NCBI GenBank assembly: GCA_902594855.1
Contig: CACJNS010000002.1
Coordinates: 18,003-82,002 of the forward strand
Direction: 5' to 3'
Source: an uncultured SAR86 cluster bacterium
Lineage (GTDB): Bacteria; Pseudomonadota; Gammaproteobacteria; Magnimaribacterales; AG-339-G14
DNA length: 64,000 nucleotides
This document shows positions 32,984 to 64,000 of the stretch, in pieces. The notes beneath the pieces are model-generated. The model did no database searches. It was not told where the DNA came from and worked only from the letters and a program-made list of their open reading frames with translations. How positions within the stretch are numbered: position 1 is the first letter of the stretch; each line of letters starts with the position of its first letter. The translations under genes and the position numbers were made by a program.

Positions 32984-33495
32984 TTATTTATCAAAATCTT
33001 AAGTTTATAAAATGGATTAGTTGCAACTAATTTATCCGTATCTTCTTGAGCGTCGGATATTTTTTCAACAAGGATAGAATCTTCTATTATTTCTAGAAGT
33101 TTGCAGTCTCCAGATAAGCAATCTCTGTAGTACCAATCCACTACAGAATAAAGTGTAAAAATTAATTTATCATTCTTTTGAATTATTTCTTCTGCTTTGC
33201 TTCTAAAGGAATTATTGACTAGTAATTGATATGTATTTTTATTTTTGAACACAAGGCTGAATTTTGGATAGAACCTACTACTTTTAAAATTTATTATTAA
33301 TTTTTCTTTTTGTTTTAAAAAACTGACTTTTCCGTTAAGGAAAGATTCACTTGTTGTAAATGAAAAATTTGCATCTAAAAAATCTCTATCATTTTTTGAA
33401 GTAATTAAGTCATCTTTAACAGTTGCACAAGATGAAAGATAGGATACTAAAATAAAAATAAGTAGAATTGACCTCAGGATTGAATTTTTATTCAT
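32980..33495 (-). CDS. outer-membrane lipoprotein, probably a highly diverged LolB
   Basis: Lipobox-like LSSC. Position directly upstream of ispE is the usual lolB site, but the sequence is not clearly recognisable. Confidence 0.5.
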   Translation of the reverse strand: MNKNSILRSILLIFILVSYLSSCATVKDDLITSKNDRDFLDANFSFTTSESFLNGKVSFLKQKEKLIINFKSSRFYPKFSLVFKNKNTYQLLVNNSFRSKAEEIIQKNDKLIFTLYSVVDWYYRDCLSGDCKLLEIIEDSILVEKISDAQEDTDKLVATNPFYKLKILINK

Positions 33496-33513
33496 CTTTT
33501 AAAAATTTTATAA

Positions 33514-34605
33514 ATGTTAGATTCAATAAAAACAAGATTAACTGAGATTAAGGATAATTTCTCTGATATTCAGACTAAATTGAGTATGCCAGATGTAATA
33601 AATGATCAAAAGCAGTATGCATCTTTATCGAAAGAATATTCTAATTTAAAACCTATTGTAGAAAAATTCGAAGAGTACATTCAGTGCGAAAGCAATATCT
33701 CAAGTGCTGAAGAAGTCCTTAATGAATCTGATATAGATTTAGCGGAGTTAGCAAAAGAGGAAATTAAAGAAAATAACGAAAGAATTTCTGAGATTGAAAT
33801 AGAGCTGAAGAATCTTCTTATACCAGTTGATGAGAATGATGATAAAAATGTTTTTGTTGAAGTTAGAGCCGGAACCGGTGGCGATGAGGCAGCACTTTTT
33901 GTTGGAGACCTTTATAGAATGTATCTAAGGCTAGCAGAAAGAAATAGATGGAAGAGTGACCTTATTTCGTCAAGAGAAAGCGAGCAAGGTGGATTTAAAG
34001 AAGTTGTAATAAAAATTTCTGGAGAGAATGTTTATAAAAAATTGAAGTTTGAATCTGGGATACATCGTGTTCAAAGAGTTCCTTCAACTGAATCACAAGG
34101 AAGAATTCATACCTCAGCATGCTCGGTAGCTGTTCTTGCAGAAATAGAAGATGTTGAAGAAGTCGAGATAGATAAGTCTGAAATCAGAACTGACACTTTT
34201 CGTGCCTCTGGTGCAGGAGGACAGCATGTTAATAAGACAGATTCAGCTGTGAGGTTAACCCACATTCCGACCGGAATAGTCGTTGAATGCCAGGATGATA
34301 GGTCTCAACATAAGAATAAAGCAAAAGCACTTACTTTGCTTGGTGCAAAGCTCAAAGCAATGGCAGAACAAGAACTAACTCAAGAGCAAGCTGAAAAAAG
34401 AAAAAATATGGTTGGGTCAGGAGATCGATCTGAAAAAATTAGAACATATAATTTTCCTCAAAGTAGAATCACTGATCATAGAATTGAATTTTCGGTTCAT
34501 AATTTGGATGGTTTCCTCGATGGTGAAATGGAAATCATGATCTCAACGTTATTGGAAGAAAATCAAGCTAGATTATTATCAAACCTTGAAAAAACATTCT
34601 CGTGA
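33514..34605 (+). CDS. prfA: peptide chain release factor 1
   Basis: GGQ motif (GAGGQHVN), PST specificity tripeptide, RTYNFPQ. Confidence 0.98.
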
Positions 34606-35408
34606 CGAATCTTCGAAAGTTATTTTCAATTTCTAACCTGCCAACATTAGATAAGGAACTGATTTTGTGTCACATCCTCAAAATTGAAAGAGTTGATCTT
34701 TATAAAAAGTCTGATATTGAAATTCAAGATAAAACAAACAAAGCCTTTACCGACCTTGTAAAGAAGAGAGAAGAAGGTTTTCCTTTGGCATACATAACAG
34801 GCATAAAACCTTTCTGGAATGATGAATTTCAGGTTAATGAAAGTACGTTAATCCCAAGACCAGAGTCAGAATTATTAGTAGAAACAGCCATCTCTTTTGA
34901 TTTAGAGAATTGTTCACTTCTTGAGCTTGGAACAGGATCTGGAGCTATAGGTATGTCTATAGCTAAAGAAAAGCCTTTTTGGACTTGTACCTTAACAGAT
35001 AAAAGTTTTGAAGCTTTATCTGTTGCGAGAGAAAATATGAAAGCTCTAAATCTAAAAAACTCTCTTCTAGTTCAGCATGATTGGCATAAAAGATGGCTTT
35101 TTGAGCCTATGGATTTGATAATTTCTAATCCACCATATATTTATCGTAATGATTTAGATGGTGATGAGGATGGAATTTGGTTTGAGCCACCATCAGCACT
35201 TTTTTCTGAGAAAAAGGGACTGGCTGACATTAGTACAATCGTAAAAAAAAGTGTTACTTTCTTAAAAGAAAATGGGAAGTTGCTTTTAGAACATGGATTT
35301 GATCAGAAGGATCCAATTAATAAAATGGCAAATCAAAATGACTACAGTGATGTTTCTTTTTTAAAAGATTTGAATGGAAAATGGAGAGTAGCGTGTCTAA
35401 CCAAGTGA
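34602..35408 (+). CDS. prmC: release factor glutamine methyltransferase (GTG start)
   Basis: [23 protein letters not shown] and SNPPY motifs. Confidence 0.96.
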
Positions 35409-36151
35409 ACTTTAGTGAAAAAGAGCTGATGAAATACAGCAGAAACATCATGCTTACTGACATAGGGGTTGAGGGACAAAAGCTACTAAAAAATTCTACT
35501 GTCACGATTATTGGGGTTGGTGGTTTGGGTTGTGCCTGCTCGCAGTATCTGGTTGCAAGCGGAATTGGTAACTTAAACCTCTTTGATCCTGACCAAGTTG
35601 ATCTAAGTAACTTACAAAGGCAAATTTTATTTCGTGAAGAGGACTTAAATGCTTTTAAAGTCGATGCTGCAGTTATATCTTTACTGAGACTTAATCCTGA
35701 TGTGAATATAAAAAAATTCAGACAAAGTTTTGAAAAAAATAGTGTTCCTGATGAAATAACAAAGAGCGAAATTGTTATAGATTGTTCTGATAATTTTGAA
35801 ACAAGAAGGTATACAAATAATTTTTGTTATAAAAATAAAATACCCTTAATTTCAGGTTCATGCATTCAGTGGAAAGGGCAGCTTATGAAATTTGATTTCC
35901 AAAATGATAGTGCATGTTATGAATGCTTATTCGAAGATACATCTTCGGAAGACTTAAGCTGCACAGAATCAGCAATATTTTCTCCAATAGTAGGGATAAT
36001 TGGGTCAATGTTAGCTTCAGAATCAATAAAAACAATTACTAAGATATCCAAGAAATGCCAAATTTTCCAAGATTATGATTTCAAAGATAATTTAAGCAGG
36101 GAAATATCTTTTAAAAAAAATAACCAATGTAAAATTTGTGGTAAGTGTTAA
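35381..36151 (+). CDS. moeB: MoeB/ThiF-family E1-like adenylyltransferase
   Basis: YSRNIML, GVGGLG and SNLQRQ motifs, CYEC and CKIC zinc ligands, and a crossover-loop Cys. Confidence 0.85.
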   Translation: MESSVSNQVNFSEKELMKYSRNIMLTDIGVEGQKLLKNSTVTIIGVGGLGCACSQYLVASGIGNLNLFDPDQVDLSNLQRQILFREEDLNAFKVDAAVISLLRLNPDVNIKKFRQSFEKNSVPDEITKSEIVIDCSDNFETRRYTNNFCYKNKIPLISGSCIQWKGQLMKFDFQNDSACYECLFEDTSSEDLSCTESAIFSPIVGIIGSMLASESIKTITKISKKCQIFQDYDFKDNLSREISFKKNNQCKICGKC

Positions 36152-37209
36152 TGATGAAAATCAGAGGATTCATAGAAGGTTTTTATAATAGAAAGCCAAA
36201 AAAGAACGATTATGGTTTTGAGAATAGTAATATTACCCATTACATTTATGCGCCAAAAGAAGATTCTTACATCAGACAAAAATGGCGATTAAAAGATAAA
36301 TCTCTTGAAGCACGAAGCATTCCCAAAAATATAGCTCAAGTATATACATTATCTCCAGGAGCAGACTTTAATAGAAAATCTAAGAAGGATTTTAACTTTC
36401 TGCTTTCAAAGTTTAATTTTGCCATTAATAAAGGATTTTCCGAGGTAGGTTTATTGTTTGATGATATTGATATAAATAACATTGGAATAGAATCTGATGA
36501 TAAGGATTTAGGTAAATTTCACGGCGAATTAATTTCAGAGGTAACTACTAAGTTGGGTCTTAGTAATGGATGGTTTTGTCCATCAATTTATTGCGAAAGC
36601 TTTTCTAAAAAAGGAATTCAAAATGATAAGTATCTCGAAGGAGTATCAGAAACCATAAATAATGATTTATTTTTTCTTTGGACGGGTCCAAAAGTAATTA
36701 GCAATTTTATTTCTCAAGACCACCTCAAAGAGCTAGGTCAAGTAATAAAGAATCCTGTGGTTATTTGGGATAATTTTTATGCAAACGATTATTGTCCTAC
36801 AAGGCTTTTTTTAGGCGATATTACGGGCAGGGATTTTTTTAGAGGTAATCCTTATGGACACGTTATTAATGGCACCGGACTCATAAACACTGATGAATTT
36901 TTAACAGGTAAAGTTTTTGATAAGAAAAAAAAGATAAATTTACCCAGTGAACTGCTGCCTTTATTTGATAGTCCATTCAAAAATATCAAGAAATCTGAAA
37001 TCAATAAAATGATTAGAAATTTTAAAGGTATTAAGAAAGCAGTTTTTGAGACTACAGATGATAATTTGTTTTTGGAATGGAAACCTTATTTAGTGCAAGC
37101 CTTAAACGATATAGAGCTAATAAAAAATTTTAAATCTAAGCAGACTATTGAAACTTACTTGCATCGAAGATATTCTCCATTAGTAAGTCAGACTTTCAAT
37201 AAATATTAA
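36151..37209 (+). CDS. GH84-family beta-N-acetylglucosaminidase (O-GlcNAcase-like), no signal peptide
   Basis: GFIEGFY, YIYAPKED, catalytic LLFDDI, CPSIY, WTGPKV and WDNFYANDY motifs. Start placed at ATG 36151 (TAATG with moeB). Confidence 0.85.
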   Translation: MMKIRGFIEGFYNRKPKKNDYGFENSNITHYIYAPKEDSYIRQKWRLKDKSLEARSIPKNIAQVYTLSPGADFNRKSKKDFNFLLSKFNFAINKGFSEVGLLFDDIDINNIGIESDDKDLGKFHGELISEVTTKLGLSNGWFCPSIYCESFSKKGIQNDKYLEGVSETINNDLFFLWTGPKVISNFISQDHLKELGQVIKNPVVIWDNFYANDYCPTRLFLGDITGRDFFRGNPYGHVINGTGLINTDEFLTGKVFDKKKKINLPSELLPLFDSPFKNIKKSEINKMIRNFKGIKKAVFETTDDNLFLEWKPYLVQALNDIELIKNFKSKQTIETYLHRRYSPLVSQTFNKY

Positions 37210-37224
37210 TCAAAAGAGGTAATA

Positions 37225-38850
37225 ATGCTGGGTAATATGATGACTGAACCTTTGCTCATTTCAGGAATTCTTGAGCATGCAATTCAAAATAATTCTAAAA
37301 CTGAAATAGTAAGCAAGAGAGTTGAAGGAGACATTCATAGATATTCTATTTTAGATGCTGCAAAAAGATCAAAGCAGCTTGCCAATGCTTTAGTTAACTT
37401 AGGAGTTAAAGAAGGCGATGTTCTCGGCACAATGGCTGTCAATGGCTACCGACATTTTGAACTTTATTTTGGAATCTCTGGGATTGGAGCAGTATTGCAT
37501 ACTTTAAACCCCAGGCTTTTTCCGGAGCAGATAGATTTCATTGTTAATCATGCTGAAGACAAGTATCTTTTCATTGATCTTCCTTTTATACCAATAATTG
37601 AGGCAGTAGCTAAAAATTTAAAAAATGTGAAAGGCTTCATTGTTTTATGTGATAAAGAAAACCTTCCCAAAGATTCCAAGCTAGAAAATTTGATTTGTTA
37701 CGAAGAGTTAATTAAAGATGAAAGTGAAGAGTTTGATTGGCCAACTTTTGACGAAAACACAGCATCTTCTTTGTGTTATACGTCTGGCACAACAGGAAAT
37801 CCAAAAGGAGTTCTTTATTCTCATAGATCTACAATACTTCATGCTTGGTACTCAAGTGCAGGAAATGCAATGAATTTAACTTCAAAAAGTGTGGTCCTCC
37901 CTGTGGTTCCAATGTTTCACGTTAATGCCTGGGGAGTTCCTTATGCAGCTAGTATGCTTGGGTGTAAATTAGTATTTCCTGGTCCTTTCACTGATGGAGA
38001 GTCTATTTACAACTTGATTAACGATGAAGGAGTAAATAATTTGCTTGGTGTTCCCACAGTATGGCTCGGATTACTAAATTATTTAGATGAAAAGGACATT
38101 ACCCTAAAAAATGTAAATTCAGTATTGGTAGGTGGATCTGCCGCTCCAAAGTCGATGATAAAAGACTTCCAAGAAAAACATAACGTTTTTCTTTTGCATG
38201 GGTGGGGAATGACTGAAATGAGTCCTCTGGGGACATTAAATCAAGATACAGCAGAGATGGATTTAATGGAGTTAGATGATCGTTATGAGCTTCAAACCAG
38301 TCAAGGAAGAGCAATATATGGATGCCAAATTAAAATTGTTAATGATGAAGGAAATACTTTACCTAACGATGGGAAAACTTTTGGCAGGTTAATGGTTAAA
38401 GGACCAGCAATAATTGAAAGATATTACAAGTCATCAGAGAGCGCTTTAGAAAATGGTTGGTTTGATACTGGAGATGTATCAACTATTTCGCCAGACGGAT
38501 ACATGAGGATAGTAGATAGGAGTAAGGATGTAATCAAGTCTGGAGGTGAGTGGATAAGTTCTATTGACCTAGAAAATACCGCCCTCGGATGCCCTGGAGT
38601 TTTAGAAGCATGTGTCGTTGGAGTTGCTCACGAAAAATGGGATGAGAGACCTCTACTGTTTGTTGTTAAAAATTCTGACGAATGTACAAAAGAATCTGTT
38701 TTGGAGTATCTTTCTGATAAAGTTGCAAAGTGGTGGTTGCCTGATGATGTGATCTTCATTGATGAGTTACCTCACGGAGCAACCGGAAAACTATTGAAAA
38801 CAGGTTTAAGAGAAGATTATAAAAATCATTTAATTACGAAAGGAGATTGA
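37225..38850 (+). CDS. acyl-CoA ligase of the DmdB (3-methylmercaptopropionate-CoA)/medium-long-chain fatty acid family
   Basis: [51 protein letters not shown] and ATGK motifs. Confidence 0.9.
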
Positions 38851-38851
38851 A

Positions 38852-39304
38852 ATGGCGGGATTAGTACCAGCAGATACTTTAAAAGATTACATAGGAAAAG
38901 ACATGGGTACATCAGATTGGTTGGAAATTGATCAAGAGAGAATAAATCAATTTGCTGATGTAACGTTAGATCATCAATTCATTCATGTCGATGAAGAAAA
39001 GGCAACACCATTATTCGGTTCCACTATTGCTCATGGTTTTCTTTCATTATCTTTGATGGCTGGAATGCCTGCTCCTCAAGTAGCTCCAGATAATATGAAA
39101 ATGGCTTTTAATTATGGTTTAGATAAGGTTAGATTTCTAACTCCTGTAAATGTTGGCTCAAAAGTTCGAACAAAAGCTACTTTGTTATCTGTAGATGATA
39201 AAGGAGATGGAAGGTATCTAGTTAAAAATGAAATAAAAATGGAAATTGAAGGGCAAGAAAAACCAGCATATATAGCTGAAGCTCTTACTATGTATGTGAC
39301 TTAG
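38852..39304 (+). CDS. MaoC-family (R)-enoyl-CoA hydratase/dehydratase
   Basis: FADVTLDHQFIHVD hydratase-2 motif, TIAHGFLSLSL and NYGLDKVRF. Confidence 0.9.
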   Translation: MAGLVPADTLKDYIGKDMGTSDWLEIDQERINQFADVTLDHQFIHVDEEKATPLFGSTIAHGFLSLSLMAGMPAPQVAPDNMKMAFNYGLDKVRFLTPVNVGSKVRTKATLLSVDDKGDGRYLVKNEIKMEIEGQEKPAYIAEALTMYVT

Positions 39305-42529: not shown

Positions 42530-43570
42530 ATGGTACTAAAATATTTTAGAGGATTATACTCCAATGATTTATCAATTGATCTTGGAACGGCAAATACTCT
42601 TGTTTACGTCCGAGATAAAGGAATTGTCCTCAATGAACCAAGTGTAGTTGCCATTAGAAAAACTGAAGGGGCAAGAACAGTAGTAGCAGTTGGAACTGAA
42701 GCAAAAAGGATGCTTGGAAGAGTACCAGGAAACATTGAAGCTATAAGACCACTGAAAGATGGAGTGATAGCAGATTTTCAGGTTACTGAGAAAATGCTTC
42801 AACACTTCATTCAACAAGTTCATGGCGATAACTTTATGCGACCTAGCCCGAGAATTCTCGTGTGCGTACCTTGTCAGTCAACACAAGTGGAGCGAAGAGC
42901 AATCAGAGAGTCTGTGCTTGGAGCTGGGGCAAGAGAAGTAAGATTAATAGAAGAGCCCATGGCGGCTGCAATTGGAGCAGGACTTCCTGTAGAGGAGGCT
43001 TTTGGATCCATGGTAGTTGATATTGGTGGCGGTACCACTGAGGTTGCAATTCTGGCGCTTAATGGAGTGGTTTACTCAAATTCACTAAAAACTGGTGGAG
43101 ACAGGCTTAATGAATCAATAATTTCTTATTTAAGAAGAAAATATGGAATTCTCATTGGTGAATCTACTGCTGAAAGAATAAAAGAAACTATTGGATGTGC
43201 TACCCCTGAAAGTGAGTTACAAGAGATGGAAATCAGAGGGCGTAATTTAGCTGAGGGTGTGCCTAACACTCTTTCTATTTCAAGTTTAGAAGTATATGAA
43301 GCAATGTCTGGCCCTCTATCTTCTATATTGCAAGCAATTAAAAATGGCCTTGAGCAATCTCCGCCTGAGCTGAGTTCCGATATATCAGAAAGAGGAATTG
43401 TTTTGACTGGTGGAGGAGCCTTACTCAGAGACCTTGATGTTATGATCTCAGAACAAACAGGTATACCTGTTATCCCAGCTGATGATCCTCTTACTTGCGT
43501 TGCAAGAGGAGGGGGAGTTGCCCTAGAAATAATGGATAAATACGATATCGATCTTTTATCAACAGATTAA
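42530..43570 (+). CDS. mreB: rod shape-determining protein MreB
   Basis: [26 protein letters not shown] and VLTGGGALL motifs. Confidence 0.99.
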
Positions 43571-59697: not shown

Positions 59698-60180
59698 TTG
59701 ATGGCTATAGGACTTTATGGATACAGTAGTTTGGCATTGGATTCTAAAGGACGAATTGCAATGCCAGCAAAGTATAAAGAAGCTTTAAAAGAAGTTTCAG
59801 AGGGTTCTTTGGTCATTACTAGGGACCCACAATATCCTTCCTTAAGAATCTATCCAGGCAGTTTATGGAAAACCATATCGAAAGCTTTTGAAAACTTATC
59901 TGGCCTAGATTCAAAAATTAGATCTATTCAGTGGAATTTTCTTGGATATGCAAATTTAATTGATTTTGAAGTCAATGATCGGATGCAAATACTTATTCCT
60001 CAAAGCTTAAGAGATTACGCTCAATTAAAAGTTAAAGAAAAAGTATCTTTGATTGGTATGGGTCAGAAATTTGAAGTATGGAATGAAAAAAATTGGCTTG
60101 CAAAAGAGAAAGGTCAACAAATTCAAGGTGAAAAATTAGATATCGACTTACCTTCTAACGTCCAGGAGATCCCTTTTTAG
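59698..60180 (+). CDS. mraZ: division/cell-wall cluster transcriptional repressor MraZ
   Basis: LDSKGRIAMP, ILIPQSLRDYAQL and FEVW motifs; start TTG 59698 or ATG 59701. Confidence 0.92.
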   Translation: MMAIGLYGYSSLALDSKGRIAMPAKYKEALKEVSEGSLVITRDPQYPSLRIYPGSLWKTISKAFENLSGLDSKIRSIQWNFLGYANLIDFEVNDRMQILIPQSLRDYAQLKVKEKVSLIGMGQKFEVWNEKNWLAKEKGQQIQGEKLDIDLPSNVQEIPF

Positions 60181-60184
60181 CATC

Positions 60185-61039
60185 ATGTTCACTCATCAGC
60201 CAGTAATGATCAACGAAACTATTAAAAATTTAGTTCATGATCCTGCCGGCACTTATTTAGATTGTACTTTTGGCTTAGGGGGACATTCAAAAAAGATTTT
60301 AGAAAACCTTAACGATAATGGCCGATTAATTGCAATAGACAGAGACAAAGAAACTGTCTTGTATTCACAAAAAATAAAAGACAAAAGATTTCATTTTAAA
60401 AATCTAAATTTTTCAAAAATTGAAAGTTTAGATACAAGACTAGACGGTATCTTTTTTGATCTAGGGAATTCTTCTATGCAATTAGATGATCCAGAAAGAG
60501 GATTTAGCTTTCAAAAGGATGGTCCTCTTGATATGAGAATGAACAAAGAAGAGGAAATTACAGCAGAACAATGGATAAATACTGCAACAGAGAAAGAAAT
60601 AAGTGACGTCTTATTTCATTTGGGCGAAGAGCGAAAATCTAGGTTTTATGCCAGGAAAATTGTTGAATCAAGAAAAAAGACCAAGTTTAAAAGCACAGCA
60701 CAGCTTTCTTTATTTATTCAGAAATATAGCAGTTCACAAAAGCGTCATCCAGCAACTAATGTATTCAGAGCAATAAGAATGCATATAAATAATGAAATTG
60801 AAGAGATGATCAATGGATTTAAATCAGCAGCTTGCCTACTCAAGCAAAATGGAAAATTAATCATCATAAGCTTTCATTCCATAGAAGATAGAATAGCTAA
60901 AAACTTTCTCAGATCAGAGGAAGCAAAAAATCTTAATCTTAAAAAGCAAGGAAAGCCTATTAAGCCAACAAATAATGAAATTAAGTCTAATCCGAGATCA
61001 AGGAGCGCAATAATGAGAATTGCGATAAAAAATGTTTAA
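60185..61039 (+). CDS. rsmH: 16S rRNA C1402 N4-methyltransferase
   Basis: HQPVM, DCTFGLGGHS, QLDDPERGFSF, PLDMRM, SFHSIEDR and NPRSRSA motifs. Confidence 0.97.
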   Translation: MFTHQPVMINETIKNLVHDPAGTYLDCTFGLGGHSKKILENLNDNGRLIAIDRDKETVLYSQKIKDKRFHFKNLNFSKIESLDTRLDGIFFDLGNSSMQLDDPERGFSFQKDGPLDMRMNKEEEITAEQWINTATEKEISDVLFHLGEERKSRFYARKIVESRKKTKFKSTAQLSLFIQKYSSSQKRHPATNVFRAIRMHINNEIEEMINGFKSAACLLKQNGKLIIISFHSIEDRIAKNFLRSEEAKNLNLKKQGKPIKPTNNEIKSNPRSRSAIMRIAIKNV

Positions 61040-61310
61040 TCAAATGATATTGATATTTATTTTAGGATCTCTGATTTCTGCTTTTTTTAGTTCCTGCTTA
61101 GTTTTGAACAAGAATGCTAGTTACAAGCAATTAGTCTCAGAAAAGTATCTTTTAAACGACTATAAGTCAAAACTAGATGAGGAATCAGTTTATCTCAAGA
61201 ATAAGATATTAAATCTAACTTCTCACAATTCAGTAAAGGAAAAAACGGTTGACGAATATGGAATGATTTTGCCTGAATCCGTTCTTTTGATTCAAGGAGC
61301 AGAAAAGTGA
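61032..61310 (+). CDS. ftsL: probable cell division protein FtsL
   Basis: Single TM, coiled coil and YGMILP tail; immediately follows rsmH. Confidence 0.7.
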   Translation: MFNQMILIFILGSLISAFFSSCLVLNKNASYKQLVSEKYLLNDYKSKLDEESVYLKNKILNLTSHNSVKEKTVDEYGMILPESVLLIQGAEK

Positions 61311-61858
61311 AATTCTTAACTTTCATTGTAATGATTTTTTCTTCAACCTTTGTTTTATCCGAAGTTTTTGAAGACCCAAAACCTTTGTTTTCAAAACATA
61401 ATCCTAACTTTGTTGAATCATCTAAGGAAGTCAATTCTTGGCCAATAAAAAGATTGCATGTGAAAGAATTTCAACCTCTTGCTTTTTGGGGAAAAGACCA
61501 GATACTGACCCAATCTGGTCGCCTCCTCAAATTTAAAACAAAAGAAAATTTGAAGTTAGTTAATATTGAAGCAAACAGAAATAATATTGACTTTGTCTTA
61601 AGGTATTTTTTTGAGCTAAATCAAATTTTGAAAGGATCTAACTTGGTTCTTAATAGAATTCTAATTGAAGAGTTTGATTTAATGACCTTAGAGGATAATT
61701 CCGGCATAAGGTTTCACATGAATAAATCAAAAATAGAAATTCAATTAGAAAACCTTAAAACATTCCTGAAGAGCGAATACTTTAACAACATAAAAGATAC
61801 CTTTTCATATTTAGATTTAAGGTATCAAAACAAAGGAGCAATTGGGTTAAGGGATTAA
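61307..61858 (+). CDS. ftsQ: truncated FtsQ/DivIB (beta domain, most of POTRA missing; GTG start)
   Basis: WPIKRLHVKEFQPLAFW...SGRL and C-terminal YLDLRYQNKGAIG; directly upstream of ftsA. Confidence 0.8.
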   Translation: MKFLTFIVMIFSSTFVLSEVFEDPKPLFSKHNPNFVESSKEVNSWPIKRLHVKEFQPLAFWGKDQILTQSGRLLKFKTKENLKLVNIEANRNNIDFVLRYFFELNQILKGSNLVLNRILIEEFDLMTLEDNSGIRFHMNKSKIEIQLENLKTFLKSEYFNNIKDTFSYLDLRYQNKGAIGLRD

Positions 61859-61859
61859 T

Positions 61860-63089
61860 ATGGCCAGCAACGGATCAAATAACATCAGAGTAGGTATTGA
61901 CATAGGCACCTCGAAAGTCGTGTGTCTAATCGCTGAATATGTTGATCACGAATTACGAGTTATCGGCTTAGGAAGCCAAACTTCTCAAGGTTTAAAAAAC
62001 GGTGTGATTGTTGATATTGAATCAACTGTATCCGCAATAGAATCCGCGGTAAATGATGCAGAATTGATGTCTGGAAAACAAGTTACATCAGCTTTTGTAG
62101 GTATAAGTGGAGGTCATATAAATGGTTTAAATTCTGAAGGTGTTGTAGGTATTAAAGATAAAAAAGTCAAAGTTAGTGATGTTGATAGAGTCATCACTGC
62201 CGCACAAGCATATGCTATTCCAGATGACTCTCAATTGCTTCATGTTCTGCCAAGAGACTACATTATTGATCAACAAAATGGCATTAAAGAACCTCTTGGA
62301 ATGGCTGGCGTCAGACTGGAGACCAAAGTTCATTTAGTCACCTGTAACAGGAACTCTGCTCAAAACATATCCTCTTGTATGAAAGCTTGTGGTATTACTG
62401 TTGAAGGATTTGTTTTGGAGCAACTAGCGTCAAGTTACTCCGTCCTATCAGAAGATGAAAAAGAGCTGGGAACGTGTTTAATTGACATGGGCGGTGGAAC
62501 TTCAGACGTTGCAGTTTTTCAAAATGGAGCGATAAGTCATACAGCTAATATTCCAACTTCAGGCGATCATATTACTAAAGACATTGCTAGAGCGCTTCAA
62601 ACTCCAAGTATGCAAGCAGAAGAACTTAAGAAGAAGTATGGCTGTGCTTCAAGCTCGATAATTCATGAGAATGAAACAATTGAGGTTCCAGGTATGGCAG
62701 GAAGAAAAAATAAAATTTTCTCAAGAATGGCCCTAGCCAGTGTAATAGAGCAAAGGTATTTGGATATTTTTGGCTTAATAAAACAAAAACTTAACTTATC
62801 TTCTTTAGAAAATAATATTCCCGCTGGGATTGTAATCACAGGTGGAACATCCAGAATGGAAGGAGTAGCTCAATTAGCAGAGGAAGTTTTTAATGCTCCT
62901 GTTCGTATTGGTTCGCCATCAGGATTGATAGGATTGAGCGATATTTTAAGGAATCCAATATATGCAACTGCTGTAGGGTTGGTTTTATATAGCCAGAAAT
63001 CACAAGAAGAAGACCATATGAACTATCTGTTCATGAAAGATAAGAACATTTTTAACAAAGCTTTTAGATGGATCCAAAACAATTTCTAA
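61860..63089 (+). CDS. ftsA: cell division protein FtsA
   Basis: GIDIGTSKV, IDMGGGTSD and VITGGTSRMEG motifs, C-terminal amphipathic helix. Confidence 0.98.
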   Translation: MASNGSNNIRVGIDIGTSKVVCLIAEYVDHELRVIGLGSQTSQGLKNGVIVDIESTVSAIESAVNDAELMSGKQVTSAFVGISGGHINGLNSEGVVGIKDKKVKVSDVDRVITAAQAYAIPDDSQLLHVLPRDYIIDQQNGIKEPLGMAGVRLETKVHLVTCNRNSAQNISSCMKACGITVEGFVLEQLASSYSVLSEDEKELGTCLIDMGGGTSDVAVFQNGAISHTANIPTSGDHITKDIARALQTPSMQAEELKKKYGCASSSIIHENETIEVPGMAGRKNKIFSRMALASVIEQRYLDIFGLIKQKLNLSSLENNIPAGIVITGGTSRMEGVAQLAEEVFNAPVRIGSPSGLIGLSDILRNPIYATAVGLVLYSQKSQEEDHMNYLFMKDKNIFNKAFRWIQNNF

Positions 63090-63107
63090 TTTAAATAAGG
63101 AGGGACT

Positions 63108-64000
63108 ATGAACTGGACCGTTGTAGAAAATGAAACTAAATCATCTGCTCTTATAAGAGTAGTTGGAGTAGGTGGAGCTGGAGGAAACGCAGTGAACCAT
63201 ATGGTTGAAAGCGGTATCGAAGGCGTGCAAATGATTTGTGCTAATACAGATGAGCAAGCGCTTGATACCAACTTAGCAGAATTAAAAATTACTCTTGGGA
63301 CTGGTATTTCGAATGGTCTTGGAGCAGGAGGGAAACCTGAGGTTGGAAGAGATGCTGCTCTTGATGATCTTGAAAGAATTAAAACCTTGCTTGAGGGTTC
63401 AGATATGGTTTTTGTTGCAGCAGGAATGGGTGGCGGTACTGGAACTGGTGCAGCCCCAATTGTTGCTAGAGCTGCTAAAGAAATAGGTGCTTTGACAGTT
63501 GCAGTAGTCACCAAGCCATTAGAGCTTGAAATGAGAGATCAAATTGCAGATGCTGGTTTAAAAGAACTTACTGATGAAGTTGATTCACTAATCGCAATCC
63601 CTAACCAAAAATTATTGGAAGTTCTTGGAAGAGAACATAGTCTTCTTGATGCCTTCAAGCAAGCAAACGATGTTTTACTTGGAGCTGTTAGAGGTATATC
63701 AGATATCATCACACAAACCGGGCTCGTAAATGTTGATTTTCAAGATGTTAAAACAGTAATGTCAGAAAAAGGAACGGCTATGATGGGAACGGGAATTGCA
63801 AATGGGCCAAGCAGGGCAAAAGAGGCAGCCTCCGCAGCTGTAGGAAGTCCACTATTAGAAGATATTAATCTAGAAAACGCAAAAGGAGTTCTTGTTAATA
63901 TCACAGCTGGGCCAGATATGAAAACGGGTGAAATTGAGGAAGTTCTCGCCTTGGTAAGAGAATTTGCTGCTCAAGATGCAACAATCATACACGGTGTGGC
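63108..64000 (+). CDS. ftsZ: cell division protein FtsZ (runs off the window end)
   Basis: Manual translation from ATG 63108: VGVGGAGGNAVNHM, GMGGGTGTGAAP and NVDFQDV; AGGAGG Shine-Dalgarno. Confidence 0.98.
   Translation, partial: MNWTVVENETKSSALIRVVGVGGAGGNAVNHMVESGIEGVQMICANTDEQALDTNLAELKITLGTGISNGLGAGGKPEVGRDAALDDLERIKTLLEGSDMVFVAAGMGGGTGTGAAPIVARAAKEIGALTVAVVTKPLELEMRDQIADAGLKELTDEVDSLIAIPNQKLLEVLGREHSLLDAFKQANDVLLGAVRGISDIITQTGLVNVDFQDVKTVMSEKGTAMMGTGIANGPSRAKEAASAAVGSPLLEDINLENAKGVLVNITAGPDMKTGEIEEVLALVREFAAQDATIIHGV

What the first reader, a model, noticed from the sequence alone, without database searches (positions are those of the whole stretch)
36151..37209. Minimal cytoplasmic O-GlcNAcase-like (GH84) enzyme wired into the prfA-prmC-moeB operon
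Seen: all the main GH84 motifs, including the catalytic Asp-Asp (LLFDDI), in about 352 aa with no signal peptide and no carbohydrate-binding module. It is coupled to moeB by TAATG. Known: GH84 includes human OGA (D174/D175) and large secreted bacterial hyaluronidases, and cytoplasmic bacterial OGA-like enzymes have no well-established physiological substrate. In Pseudomonas-like genomes murI follows moeB, so this gene occupies the murI slot. Inference: two candidate roles are (a) eraser of a bacterial protein O-GlcNAc cycle, which predicts a TPR-GT41 OGT elsewhere, and (b) a NagZ substitute recycling GlcNAc from muropeptides or chitin fragments. Retention in such a streamlined core operon implies an important function.
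Basis: partly seen in the sequence, partly recalled or inferred. Interest (0 to 1): 0.68.

Follow-up and report, generated by a model that had tools for sequence, protein, structure and literature searches.

The report
Short cytoplasmic GH84 glucosaminidase in SAR86
The gene is a real, intact, stripped-down GH84 beta-N-acetylglucosaminidase of a SAR86 marine bacterium, and comparative evidence suggests it recycles the cell's own wall fragments in place of the usual enzyme NagZ, rather than removing O-GlcNAc from proteins.

Summary
**Observation: confirmed.** Window 36151-37209 (+) encodes a 352-aa GH84 protein.
- Pfam NAGidase E = 7e-37.
- All catalytic and sugar-binding residues are present.
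- There is no signal peptide and no extra domain.
- The AlphaFold2 model has pLDDT 92 and is closest to OgOGA and human OGA.
- The gene abuts moeB. The conserved start is probably the second ATG, at 36154.

**Organism and conservation.** The window is from a SAR86 single-cell genome. About 40 SAR86 species keep this gene at the same locus (31-98% identity, dN/dS about 0.1-0.2). Metatranscriptome contigs bridge moeB and GH84.

**Family.** The protein belongs to a distinct family of short (about 310-460 aa) GH84 proteins. Outside SAR86, members repeatedly sit inside peptidoglycan-recycling clusters with AmpG, AmpD, AnmK, MurQ and NlpC/P60. This is seen in SAR116, Granulosicoccaceae and some Fibrobacterota, and in 57 of 76 metagenome loci across at least 7 gene arrangements.

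**Published SAR86 tables.**
- ampG occurs in 21 of 22 genera, nagZ in only 5.
- A GH84-positive SAR86 MAG has AmpG, AmpD, AnmK and Mpl but no NagZ, OGT, NagA, NagB or NagK.
- A GH84-negative SAR86 MAG has NagZ.

**Best reading (confidence about 0.6).** It is a non-orthologous NagZ substitute that cleaves GlcNAc from GlcNAc-anhMurNAc(-peptide).

**Limits.** The O-GlcNAc-eraser reading is not supported. The NagZ status of the window's own genus could not be determined, and nothing has been tested biochemically.

The parts
36151..37209 (+). GH84 beta-N-acetylglucosaminidase gene, 352 aa. The conserved start codon is probably ATG 36154, which gives 351 aa.
   Evidence: ORF list and sequence. Pfam NAGidase E = 6.8e-37. 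Start-codon comparison across SAR86 orthologues. dN/dS 0.09-0.24.
36163..36834 (+). Catalytic (beta/alpha)8 domain, residues 5-228. The model predicts no helix after strands beta-1 and beta-2.
   Evidence: Pfam match to residues 5-228. AlphaFold2 secondary structure: E4-9, E30-33 and E62-67 with no helix between them. Two clade-specific deletions in the alignment.
36460..36465 (+). Catalytic Asp-Asp pair D104-D105 (GAT GAT) within GLLFDDIDI. It corresponds to human OGA D174/D175.
   Evidence: Sequence. Alignment to human OGA. Nearly invariant in the family.
36766..36792 (+). WDNFYANDY motif (W206, N208, D213). These are sugar-binding residues corresponding to human OGA W278, N280 and D285.
   Evidence: Invariant columns in A1 and A2. 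Alignment to human OGA.
36883..37203 (+). C-terminal helical bundle (residues 245-351). It is alignable only within the short GH84 family and carries the EW and RYSP motifs.
   Evidence: AlphaFold2 helices H245-257 through H343-351. The profile search shows that only 310-460 aa proteins match profile positions 280-382. Foldseek aligns it to the OgOGA and human OGA stalk region.
35381..36151 (+). Upstream ThiF/MoeB-family adenylyltransferase gene. Its stop abuts the GH84 start.
   Evidence: Pfam ThiF and NCBIfam MoeB-like match, 262.6 bits, just below the cut-off of 266. A metatranscriptome contig at 35855-37160 bridges the junction.
33514..35408 (+). prfA (33514-34605) and prmC (34602-35408), the head of the same-strand gene array.
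   Evidence: ORFs and Pfam. The order is conserved in all SAR86 loci.
37225..39304 (+). Downstream acyl-CoA ligase (37225-38850) and MaoC-like hydratase (38852-39304). An orthologous pair in a SAR86 MAG is annotated as 3-methylmercaptopropionyl-CoA ligase.
   Evidence: Pfam. The pair is conserved after GH84 in all SAR86 loci. MAG annotation. Metatranscriptome contig depth is higher from about 37120 onward.

Best explanation
The gene encodes a cytoplasmic exo-beta-N-acetylglucosaminidase of family GH84. It should use substrate-assisted catalysis, with D104 polarising the 2-acetamido group and D105 acting as general acid/base.

I propose that it is the missing glucosaminidase of peptidoglycan recycling in this SAR86 lineage:
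1. Muropeptides (GlcNAc-1,6-anhydroMurNAc-peptides) released by lytic transglycosylases are imported by AmpG.
2. This enzyme removes the non-reducing GlcNAc, which is the step done by the GH3 enzyme NagZ in model Gram-negatives.
3. AmpD, AnmK and Mpl then process the remainder.

It would therefore be a non-orthologous replacement of NagZ, expressed at a low housekeeping level from the prfA-prmC-moeB gene array.

**Shown:** GH84 identity, intact active site, fold, cytoplasmic architecture, conservation, purifying selection, transcription, the linkage of family members to recycling genes, and the scarcity of nagZ in SAR86.

**Inferred:** the substrate, and that the window's own genome lacks NagZ and has AmpG, AmpD and AnmK.
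For: **Enzyme**
- Pfam E = 6.8e-37, with all catalytic and sugar-binding residues invariant.
- AlphaFold2 pLDDT 92.4 and pTM 0.90. Foldseek top hits are OgOGA and human OGA, E about 1e-21, TM 0.73-0.77.
- No signal peptide.

**Family**
- A profile search finds about 65 cluster representatives of 310-460 aa that match over the full length, including the C-terminal domain. Long OGA-like proteins match only the barrel.
- In an NJ tree, the short family (SAR86, SAR116, Granulosicoccaceae, Fibrobacterota) separates from the long clade that contains human OGA, with 62% bootstrap.

**Context of relatives**
- Granulosicoccaceae L091: AmpD-like, AmpG (370 bits against a cut-off of 350), GH84, AnmK (509 bits), MurQ (477 bits), with the GH84 stop overlapping the anmK start.
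- Granulosicoccaceae L088: the ampG stop coincides with the GH84 start.
- SAR116 type: MurQ, AnmK, PIG-L, GH84.
- Fibrobacterota: AmgK, MurU and NamZ lie upstream in some loci.
- In 76 metagenome loci, 57 have a recycling-related gene within 4 genes, and 54 have AmpG, AmpD, AnmK or MurQ. At least 7 different arrangements occur.

**SAR86 itself**
- The gene is kept at the same locus in about 40 species at 31-98% identity, even where moeB is absent.
- dN/dS is 0.09-0.24.
- PMC11582366: nagZ occurs in 5 of 22 genera and ampG in 21 of 22. The isolate HIMB1674 has ampG but no nagZ.
- Gene tables of bioRxiv 10.1101/2022.08.12.503524, GH84-positive SAR86 MAG: AmpG, AmpD, AnmK and Mpl are present. There is no K01207 NagZ, no GT41, and no NagA, NagB, NagK or chitinase.
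- Same tables, GH84-negative SAR86 MAG: same locus without GH84, and NagZ is present.

**Transcription**
- Metatranscriptome contigs cover the gene and bridge moeB/GH84 and GH84/CoA ligase.
Against: - In SAR86 the gene is not next to any recycling gene. Its neighbours are translation-related genes and CoA-ligase/hydratase genes.
- The 64-kb window holds no ampG, ampD or anmK.
- The window's genome (GCA_902570595.1, 66% complete) has no genus assignment in the published tables, so its NagZ status is unknown.
- The complementarity within SAR86 rests on two or three MAGs, which may be incomplete.
- Relationships inside the short family are unresolved. SAR86 plus the SAR116/Granulosicoccaceae group has only 12% bootstrap, so function transfer is at family level.
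- By sequence, the barrel is as close to eukaryotic OGA as to the recycling-linked clades.
- Many Fibrobacterota members, and one SAR86 locus (L087), have unrelated neighbours.
- No GH84 enzyme has been shown to cleave muropeptides; I found no paper reporting this.
- The fate of MurNAc-6-P in the GH84-positive MAG is unclear, since no MurQ, AmgK or MurU KO was found.
Confidence: 0.6

Rival explanations
1. Protein O-GlcNAcase: it removes O-GlcNAc from Ser/Thr of cytoplasmic proteins as the eraser of a bacterial O-GlcNAc cycle.
For: - The closest solved structures and sequences are O-GlcNAcases: human OGA, OgOGA and TtOGA.
- The active site is identical to that of OGA.
- It has a C-terminal helical bundle like the OGA stalk.
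Against: - There is no GT41/TPR transferase in the window.
- There is none in the dbCAN-annotated GH84-positive SAR86 MAG, although GT41 was detected in other MAGs of the same study.
- Family members are linked to peptidoglycan-recycling genes, not to transferases.
- Residues next to the sugar-binding motifs differ systematically from the OGA-like clade: Y210, C215, P216, T242, G243 and D248.
Confidence: 0.07
2. Nutritional glycosidase: it hydrolyses imported GlcNAc-terminated oligosaccharides (chitobiose, glycan fragments, or muropeptides from other bacteria) to feed carbon and nitrogen metabolism.
For: - GH84 enzymes are exo-beta-GlcNAcases with loose aglycone requirements (established knowledge).
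- SAR86 has been proposed to degrade peptidoglycan from its surroundings (PMC3358033).
- An AmpG-type permease could equally import foreign muropeptides.
Against: - The GH84-positive SAR86 MAG has no NagA, NagB, NagK or chitinase KOs, so released GlcNAc has no evident catabolic route.
- The gene sits in a low-expression housekeeping array, not a polysaccharide-utilisation or TonB-receptor locus.
Confidence: 0.15
3. Another housekeeping role on an unidentified GlcNAc conjugate (for example an envelope precursor, a small-molecule glycoside or a thiol conjugate), unrelated to muropeptide recycling in SAR86.
For: - In SAR86 the conserved neighbours are prfA, prmC, moeB and a CoA ligase/MaoC pair, none tied to the cell wall.
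- In the SAR116 type, a PIG-L/LmbE deacetylase is the immediate divergent partner. That family acts on GlcNAc conjugates (established knowledge).
Against: - No candidate substrate pathway is visible.
- The recurrent AmpG, AmpD, AnmK and MurQ linkage in several arrangements points to muropeptides.
- The NagZ gap in SAR86 needs filling.
Confidence: 0.15
4. A functionless passenger gene, recently acquired and neutrally retained.
For: - It is absent from some SAR86 lineages.
- The window clade has lost two barrel helices.
Against: - It occupies the same locus across SAR86 clades at 31-98% identity.
- dN/dS is 0.09-0.24.
- All catalytic residues are invariant.
- The fold is predicted with confidence.
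- It is transcribed.
- GC content matches its surroundings.
Confidence: 0.03

Closest known systems
OgOGA (Oceanicola granulosus GH84; PDB 2XSA, 2XSB, 7KHS)
   Same: It is a cytoplasmic bacterial GH84 made of a TIM barrel plus a C-terminal helical bundle, with no carbohydrate-binding module. It is the best Foldseek match (E = 5e-22, TM 0.73), with sequence E = 3e-25.
   Different: OgOGA is 447 aa, against 352 aa here. The window protein lacks two barrel helices. Proteins of OgOGA-like length fall in the OGA-like half of the tree, not in the short family. OgOGA's own physiological substrate is not established (own knowledge).
Human O-GlcNAcase (OGA), catalytic and stalk domains (for example PDB 5UHK, 5M7R, 5VVT)
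   Same: The catalytic DD pair and all sugar-binding residues are the same. It is about 30% identical over residues 6-228, E = 3e-30, with TM up to 0.77.
   Different: Human OGA is 916 aa with a disordered region and a HAT-like domain. It acts on glycoproteins and is paired with OGT. No OGT is evident here. Signature residues around the active site differ.
NagZ (GH3 beta-N-acetylglucosaminidase of peptidoglycan recycling)
   Same: The proposed job is the same: cytoplasmic removal of GlcNAc from GlcNAc-anhMurNAc-peptides downstream of AmpG. Relatives of the window protein occupy the place of a glucosaminidase in ampG/ampD/anmK/murQ clusters. NagZ is absent from most SAR86 genera.
   Different: It has an unrelated fold and mechanism. 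GH3 uses an Asp/His dyad and the motif KH(F/I)PG(H/L)G (PMC13436218). GH84 uses substrate-assisted catalysis. It is an analogue, not a homologue.
BtGH84 (BT_4395) and Clostridium perfringens NagJ
   Same: They share the GH84 catalytic domain, E = 1e-16 to 3e-20.
   Different: These are 600-1000 aa secreted, multi-domain enzymes with N-terminal and carbohydrate-binding domains. The NCBIfam GlcNAcase equivalog scores 76 bits against a cut-off of 1000.
NagX (GH20, periplasmic) of Stenotrophomonas maltophilia
   Same: It is a precedent for a non-GH3 hexosaminidase acting in the muropeptide pathway in place of NagZ (PMC13436218).
   Different: It belongs to GH20 and is periplasmic. It was shown experimentally, whereas the GH84 role here is inferred.

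Membership tests
GH84 (CAZy) / Pfam PF07555 NAGidase | Significant match to the family HMM above the curated threshold | tested here: met
   127.8 bits against a gathering score of 25, E = 6.8e-37, residues 5-228.
GH84 (CAZy) / Pfam PF07555 NAGidase | Adjacent catalytic Asp-Asp pair (human OGA D174/D175) | tested here: met
   D104-D105 in GLLFDDIDI, aligned to human OGA LLFDDID. At least 90% conserved in 70 homologues.
GH84 (CAZy) / Pfam PF07555 NAGidase | GlcNAc-binding residues (human OGA G67, K98, Y219, W278, N280, D285, N313) | tested here: met
   G10, K36, Y147, W206, N208, D213 and N240 are invariant or nearly invariant.
GH84 (CAZy) / Pfam PF07555 NAGidase | (beta/alpha)8 barrel followed by a helical bundle | tested here: met
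   AlphaFold2 pLDDT 92.4. The top 50 Foldseek hits are all GH84 structures. The model lacks helices after beta-1 and beta-2.
GH84 (CAZy) / Pfam PF07555 NAGidase | Hydrolysis of terminal beta-GlcNAc | not testable with these tools
   This needs an enzyme assay.
Protein O-GlcNAcase system (OGA with OGT) | A GT41 O-GlcNAc transferase in the same genome | tested here: not met
   There is none in the 64-kb window. There is none in the annotated GH84-positive SAR86 MAG, while GT41 was called in other MAGs of that study. The whole genome of the window's organism could not be searched.
Protein O-GlcNAcase system (OGA with OGT) | Activity on O-GlcNAc-modified proteins or peptides | not testable with these tools
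   This needs an assay.
NagZ (GH3, EC 3.2.1.52) as a protein family | GH3 domain with the KH(F/I)PG(H/L)GX4D(S/T)H motif | tested here: not met
   The protein is GH84, with no GH3 Pfam hit. It can only be a functional analogue.
NagZ-like function (muropeptide glucosaminidase) | Genomic linkage with ampG, ampD, anmK or murQ | tested here: inconclusive
   Met in relatives: Granulosicoccaceae, SAR116-type and 57 of 76 metagenome loci. Not met in the window or in any SAR86 locus.
NagZ-like function (muropeptide glucosaminidase) | Complementary distribution with GH3 NagZ in genomes that have AmpG, AmpD and AnmK | tested here: inconclusive
   Order level: ampG in 21 of 22 genera and nagZ in 5 of 22. 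One GH84-positive/NagZ-negative SAR86 MAG and one GH84-negative/NagZ-positive SAR86 MAG, plus a second GH84-negative/NagZ-positive MAG with the same locus whose taxon I could not confirm. The window's own genus was not resolved.
NagZ-like function (muropeptide glucosaminidase) | Cytoplasmic location | tested here: met
   There is no N-terminal hydrophobic segment, and beta-1 starts at residue 4. No dedicated signal-peptide predictor was available.
NCBIfam NF041654 GlcNAcase (BT_4395-like equivalog) | Score above the equivalog cut-off | tested here: not met
   76.4 bits against a cut-off of 1000. Only the barrel aligns.

The most novel reading that the evidence does not exclude
The short cytoplasmic GH84 family is the long-missing physiological role of bacterial 'OGA-like' enzymes. 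On this reading it is a non-orthologous replacement of NagZ that closes the peptidoglycan-recycling pathway in a large share of abundant marine bacteria: most SAR86 genera, SAR116, Granulosicoccaceae and part of Fibrobacterota. That would raise the possibility that the eukaryotic O-GlcNAcase fold descends from a muropeptide-recycling enzyme.
Probability: 0.5. Interest if true: 0.75.

Novelty: new variant of a known kind. Interest (0 to 1): 0.6.

Why it matters
- **An open question about enzymes.** Bacterial cytoplasmic GH84 enzymes have served for years as structural stand-ins for human OGA, yet their own substrate is unknown. A role in muropeptide recycling would give them a physiological function.
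- **A gap in SAR86.** Most SAR86 genomes encode the AmpG permease but no NagZ. This gene would explain how the pathway is closed.
- **A wider lesson.** It would add a third glycoside-hydrolase family (after GH3 and GH20) to a pathway studied mainly in pathogens, where NagZ is an antibiotic-adjuvant target.
- **Ecology.** SAR86 and SAR116 are among the most abundant ocean bacteria, so the enzyme would matter for the turnover of cell-wall amino sugars in seawater.
- **Testability.** The claim can be tested directly with a 352-aa soluble protein.

Tried and rejected
1. **Phylogeny.** I tried to link the SAR86 clade to the recycling-linked clades by an NJ tree of the barrel domain. Distances are saturated (1.2-1.4). 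Human OGA is as near as the SAR116 and Granulosicoccaceae proteins. The grouping of SAR86 with SAR116/Granulosicoccaceae has only 12% bootstrap. Only family-level monophyly (62%) and the shared C-terminal domain hold.
2. **Placing the window's genome in the published SAR86 genus scheme.** The aim was to read off its NagZ status. The SAG (GCA_902570595.1) and one sister SAG (GCA_902620865.1) are listed without family or genus. Another sister SAG (GCA_902583465.1) and an AH-series SAG (GCA_028141385.1) are not listed. SAG names are not used in the tables, and a second preprint has no held supplements.
3. **Promoter and terminator scan of 32.9-39.5 kb.** It found fewer promoter-like sites than shuffles give, and no convincing terminator, so it is uninformative.
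4. **P0006.** This 53%-identical protein is a chimeric assembly, with an N-terminal half like SAR116 and a C-terminal half nearly identical to the window. I ignored it.
5. **L087.** This SAR86 locus has GH84 elsewhere in the genome, next to photolyase, cytochrome b561 and TPR genes. It gives no functional hint.
6. **Literature.** I searched for GH84 combined with peptidoglycan recycling, muropeptide, NagZ and AmpG. I found no experimental report, only a passing phrase in one preprint that groups GH84 with peptidoglycan recycling.
7. **The 'murI slot' idea.** It could not be tested, because no Pseudomonas genomes are in the collections available.
Full report
**1. The observation**

Window 36151-37209 (+) is an open reading frame of 352 codons.
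- It matches Pfam NAGidase (PF07555, family GH84) at 127.8 bits against a cut-off of 25, E = 6.8e-37, over residues 5-228.
- It matches solved O-GlcNAcases at E = 2e-31 to 3e-30, OgOGA at 3e-25, TtOGA at 7e-21, BtGH84 at 3e-20 and NagJ at about 1e-16.
- The catalytic pair D104-D105 sits in GLLFDDIDI (nt 36460-36465).
- G10, K36, Y147, W206, N208, D213 and N240 align with human OGA G67, K98, Y219, W278, N280, D285 and N313. They are invariant or nearly so in 22 and 70 homologues.
- There is no hydrophobic N-terminus and no extra domain.
- The moeB stop and ATG 36151 overlap as TAATG. Sister genomes read TAATTATG or TAACGATG, so the conserved start is the next ATG (36154).

**2. Structure**

An AlphaFold2 model built on a 70-sequence alignment has mean pLDDT 92.4 and pTM 0.90.
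- It is a TIM barrel followed by a helical bundle (residues 245-351).
- No helix is predicted between beta-1 (4-9), beta-2 (30-33) and beta-3 (62-67). This matches two deletions that are specific to the window's clade.
- The 50 Foldseek PDB matches listed are all GH84 structures. They are led by OgOGA (E = 5e-22, TM 0.73) and human OGA (TM up to 0.77).

**3. Organism and conservation**

A scan of 185,579 species genomes found 199 relatives. The nearest (92-98% identity) are SAR86 single-cell genomes.
- The window itself is contig CACFYU010000006.1 of GCA_902570595.1.
- GC content is even across the window, at 30-40%.
- All of about 40 SAR86 loci keep the order prfA-prmC-(moeB)-GH84-acyl-CoA ligase-MaoC, followed by gatB and gatA on the other strand.
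- In one SAR86 subclade (about 31% identity) moeB is missing, but GH84 stays directly behind prmC.
- dN/dS against 11 orthologues of the window's subclade is 0.09-0.24.
- Marine metatranscriptome contigs cover the gene. One (35855-37160) bridges moeB and GH84, and others bridge GH84 and the CoA ligase.
- Contig depth is 10-30 from prfA to GH84 and 50-230 from about 37120 onward. Contig depth is a poor measure of expression, and DNA carry-over is possible.

**4. A distinct short GH84 family**

A profile search of 1.84 billion representatives found 4,596 GH84 proteins.
- The best 65 or so are 310-460 aa and match the profile over its full length, including the C-terminal domain.
- Longer proteins (600-1100 aa) match only the barrel.
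- In an NJ tree of the barrel, a clade of 119 short proteins (SAR86, SAR116, Granulosicoccaceae, Fibrobacterota and unnamed representatives) separates from the clade containing human OGA. The bootstrap is 62%.
- The window plus its sister SAR86 clade has 100% support. Deeper relations are unresolved.
- Family-specific residues flank the sugar-binding motifs: Y210, C215, P216, T242, G243 and D248 (numbering corrected to the A1 alignment).

**5. Genomic context of relatives**

This is the key result. Outside SAR86, short GH84 genes sit among peptidoglycan-recycling genes.
- **Granulosicoccaceae L091:** NlpC/P60, an AmpD-like amidase, AmpG (TIGR00901, 370 bits against a cut-off of 350), GH84, AnmK (509 bits) and MurQ (477 bits). 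The GH84 stop overlaps the anmK start.
- **Granulosicoccaceae L088:** AmpD, then AmpG (511 bits), whose stop coincides with the GH84 start.
- **SAR116 and SAR116-like contigs:** MurQ, AnmK, a PIG-L deacetylase and GH84, often with AmpD and NlpC/P60 upstream and YkuD plus an MFS/AmpG permease downstream.
- **Some Fibrobacterota:** AmgK, MurU and NamZ lie a few genes upstream.
- **A metagenome scan led by the Granulosicoccaceae protein gave 76 loci with the gene.**
  - 57 have a recycling-related gene within four genes, and 54 have AmpG, AmpD, AnmK or MurQ.
  - At least seven arrangements occur.
  - Most exceptions are short contigs.
- No GH3 NagZ motif occurs in any held locus.

These clusters contain every cytoplasmic step of the classical pathway except the glucosaminidase, and GH84 fills that place.

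**6. SAR86 itself**

The window contains only housekeeping genes. It has no GT41, GH3, murI, ampG, ampD or anmK. Published annotation fills part of the gap.
- **PMC11582366 (text):** nagZ is confined to several genera of one SAR86 family and one genus of another.
- **PMC11582366 (Table S5):**
  - nagZ is in 5 of 22 genera, and ampG in 21 of 22.
  - The closed isolate genome HIMB1674 has ampG but no nagZ.
- **Gene tables of bioRxiv 10.1101/2022.08.12.503524, GH84-positive SAR86 MAG:**
  - The locus order is prfA-prmC-GH84-CoA ligase-hydratase.
  - AmpG, AmpD, AnmK and Mpl are present.
  - There is no K01207 NagZ. Its single GH3 gene is a K05349 beta-glucosidase.
  - There is no GT41, NagA, NagB, NagK or chitinase.
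- **Same tables, GH84-negative MAGs:**
  - A SAR86 MAG of genus SCGC-AAA076-P13 has the same locus without GH84, and has NagZ.
  - A further MAG with that locus shows the same pattern.
- **That preprint's text** groups GH84 with 'peptidoglycan recycling' in passing, without evidence.

**7. Interpretation**

The best-supported reading is that this is the muropeptide glucosaminidase of NagZ-less SAR86. It would be a non-orthologous replacement of GH3 NagZ by a GH84 enzyme, acting on GlcNAc-1,6-anhMurNAc(-peptide) imported by AmpG. I put this at about 0.6. Four things hold the confidence down:
- There is no recycling neighbour in SAR86.
- The NagZ status of the window's own genus could not be established.
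- The within-SAR86 complementarity rests on a few MAGs.
- No GH84 has been shown to cleave muropeptides.

The rival readings:
- **O-GlcNAc eraser (about 0.07):** it lacks its defining partner, OGT, wherever that could be checked.
- **Nutritional role on chitobiose or foreign glycans (about 0.15):** it is weakened by the absence of GlcNAc catabolic genes in the relative.
- **An unidentified GlcNAc conjugate (about 0.15):** this cannot be excluded.
- **A neutral passenger:** this is essentially excluded by conservation, purifying selection and transcription.

**8. Comparison with known systems, and novelty**

As a protein it is a member of GH84, since all testable family features are met. It is closest in architecture to OgOGA and to the human OGA catalytic and stalk domains, but it is shorter and belongs to a separate clade. 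It is not a member of the NagZ (GH3) family and would be an analogue only. A precedent for a non-GH3 hexosaminidase in this pathway is the periplasmic GH20 enzyme NagX (PMC13436218). I rate it a new variant of a known kind: a known enzyme family in a role not experimentally described for it.

Noticed in passing
window 59698-64000: The division and cell-wall cluster is drastically shortened. mraZ, rsmH, a 92-aa ORF (ftsL-like position, no Pfam hit) and a 183-aa ORF (no Pfam hit) are followed directly by ftsA and ftsZ. None of ftsI, murE, murF, mraY, murD, ftsW, murG, murC or ddl lies in between.
   Followed up: partly
window 33495-33514: hemA is absent between the lolB-like gene and prfA, here and in all GH84-positive SAR86 loci. 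The NagZ-positive, GH84-negative SAR86 MAG and other gammaproteobacterial MAGs have hemA-prfA-prmC.
   Followed up: partly
window 37120-39300: Metatranscriptome contig depth rises 3- to 10-fold near the 3' end of GH84 and stays high over the CoA ligase and MaoC genes. This hints at an internal promoter, or at separate regulation of that pair. An orthologue of the ligase is annotated as 3-methylmercaptopropionyl-CoA ligase (DmdB, DMSP pathway).
   Followed up: partly
window 37212: A 1-nt insertion variant (an extra T) in the GH84/CoA-ligase spacer is seen in contigs of three of four metatranscriptomes.
   Followed up: no
L008 7255-7944, L010, L011, L090 and most of L098-L171: In SAR116-type loci a PIG-L/LmbE-family deacetylase is always divergently paired with GH84, and a 3-hydroxyisobutyrate-dehydrogenase-like gene follows it. 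Their role beside AnmK and MurQ is unexplained.
   Followed up: no
L091 202-1170: An integron integrase (TIGR02249, 384 bits) lies directly next to the NlpC/AmpD/AmpG/GH84/AnmK/MurQ cluster of a Granulosicoccaceae MAG.
   Followed up: no
P0006 (ENA contig, 367 aa): This is an apparent chimeric assembly. The N-terminal half resembles SAR116-type GH84, and the C-terminal half is nearly identical to the window protein.
   Followed up: partly
L042, L004, L069, L071 and others (Fibrobacterota): There is a recurrent block of flavodoxin/metallo-beta-lactamase protein, a 316-aa protein with no Pfam family, GH84, a SprT-like protein and HisRS. The 316-aa partner is uncharacterised.
   Followed up: no
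window 35381-36151: The 'moeB' gene scores just below the NCBIfam MoeB subfamily cut-off (262.6 against 266). It is dispensable at this locus in one SAR86 subclade, so its assignment to molybdopterin synthesis is uncertain.
   Followed up: no
window 42530-43570: The exact MreB sequence is indexed in 1,384 blocks of the public assembly collection, including single contigs of 1.0-1.29 Mb. Near-complete genomes of this lineage therefore exist in long-read reef metagenomes.
   Followed up: partly
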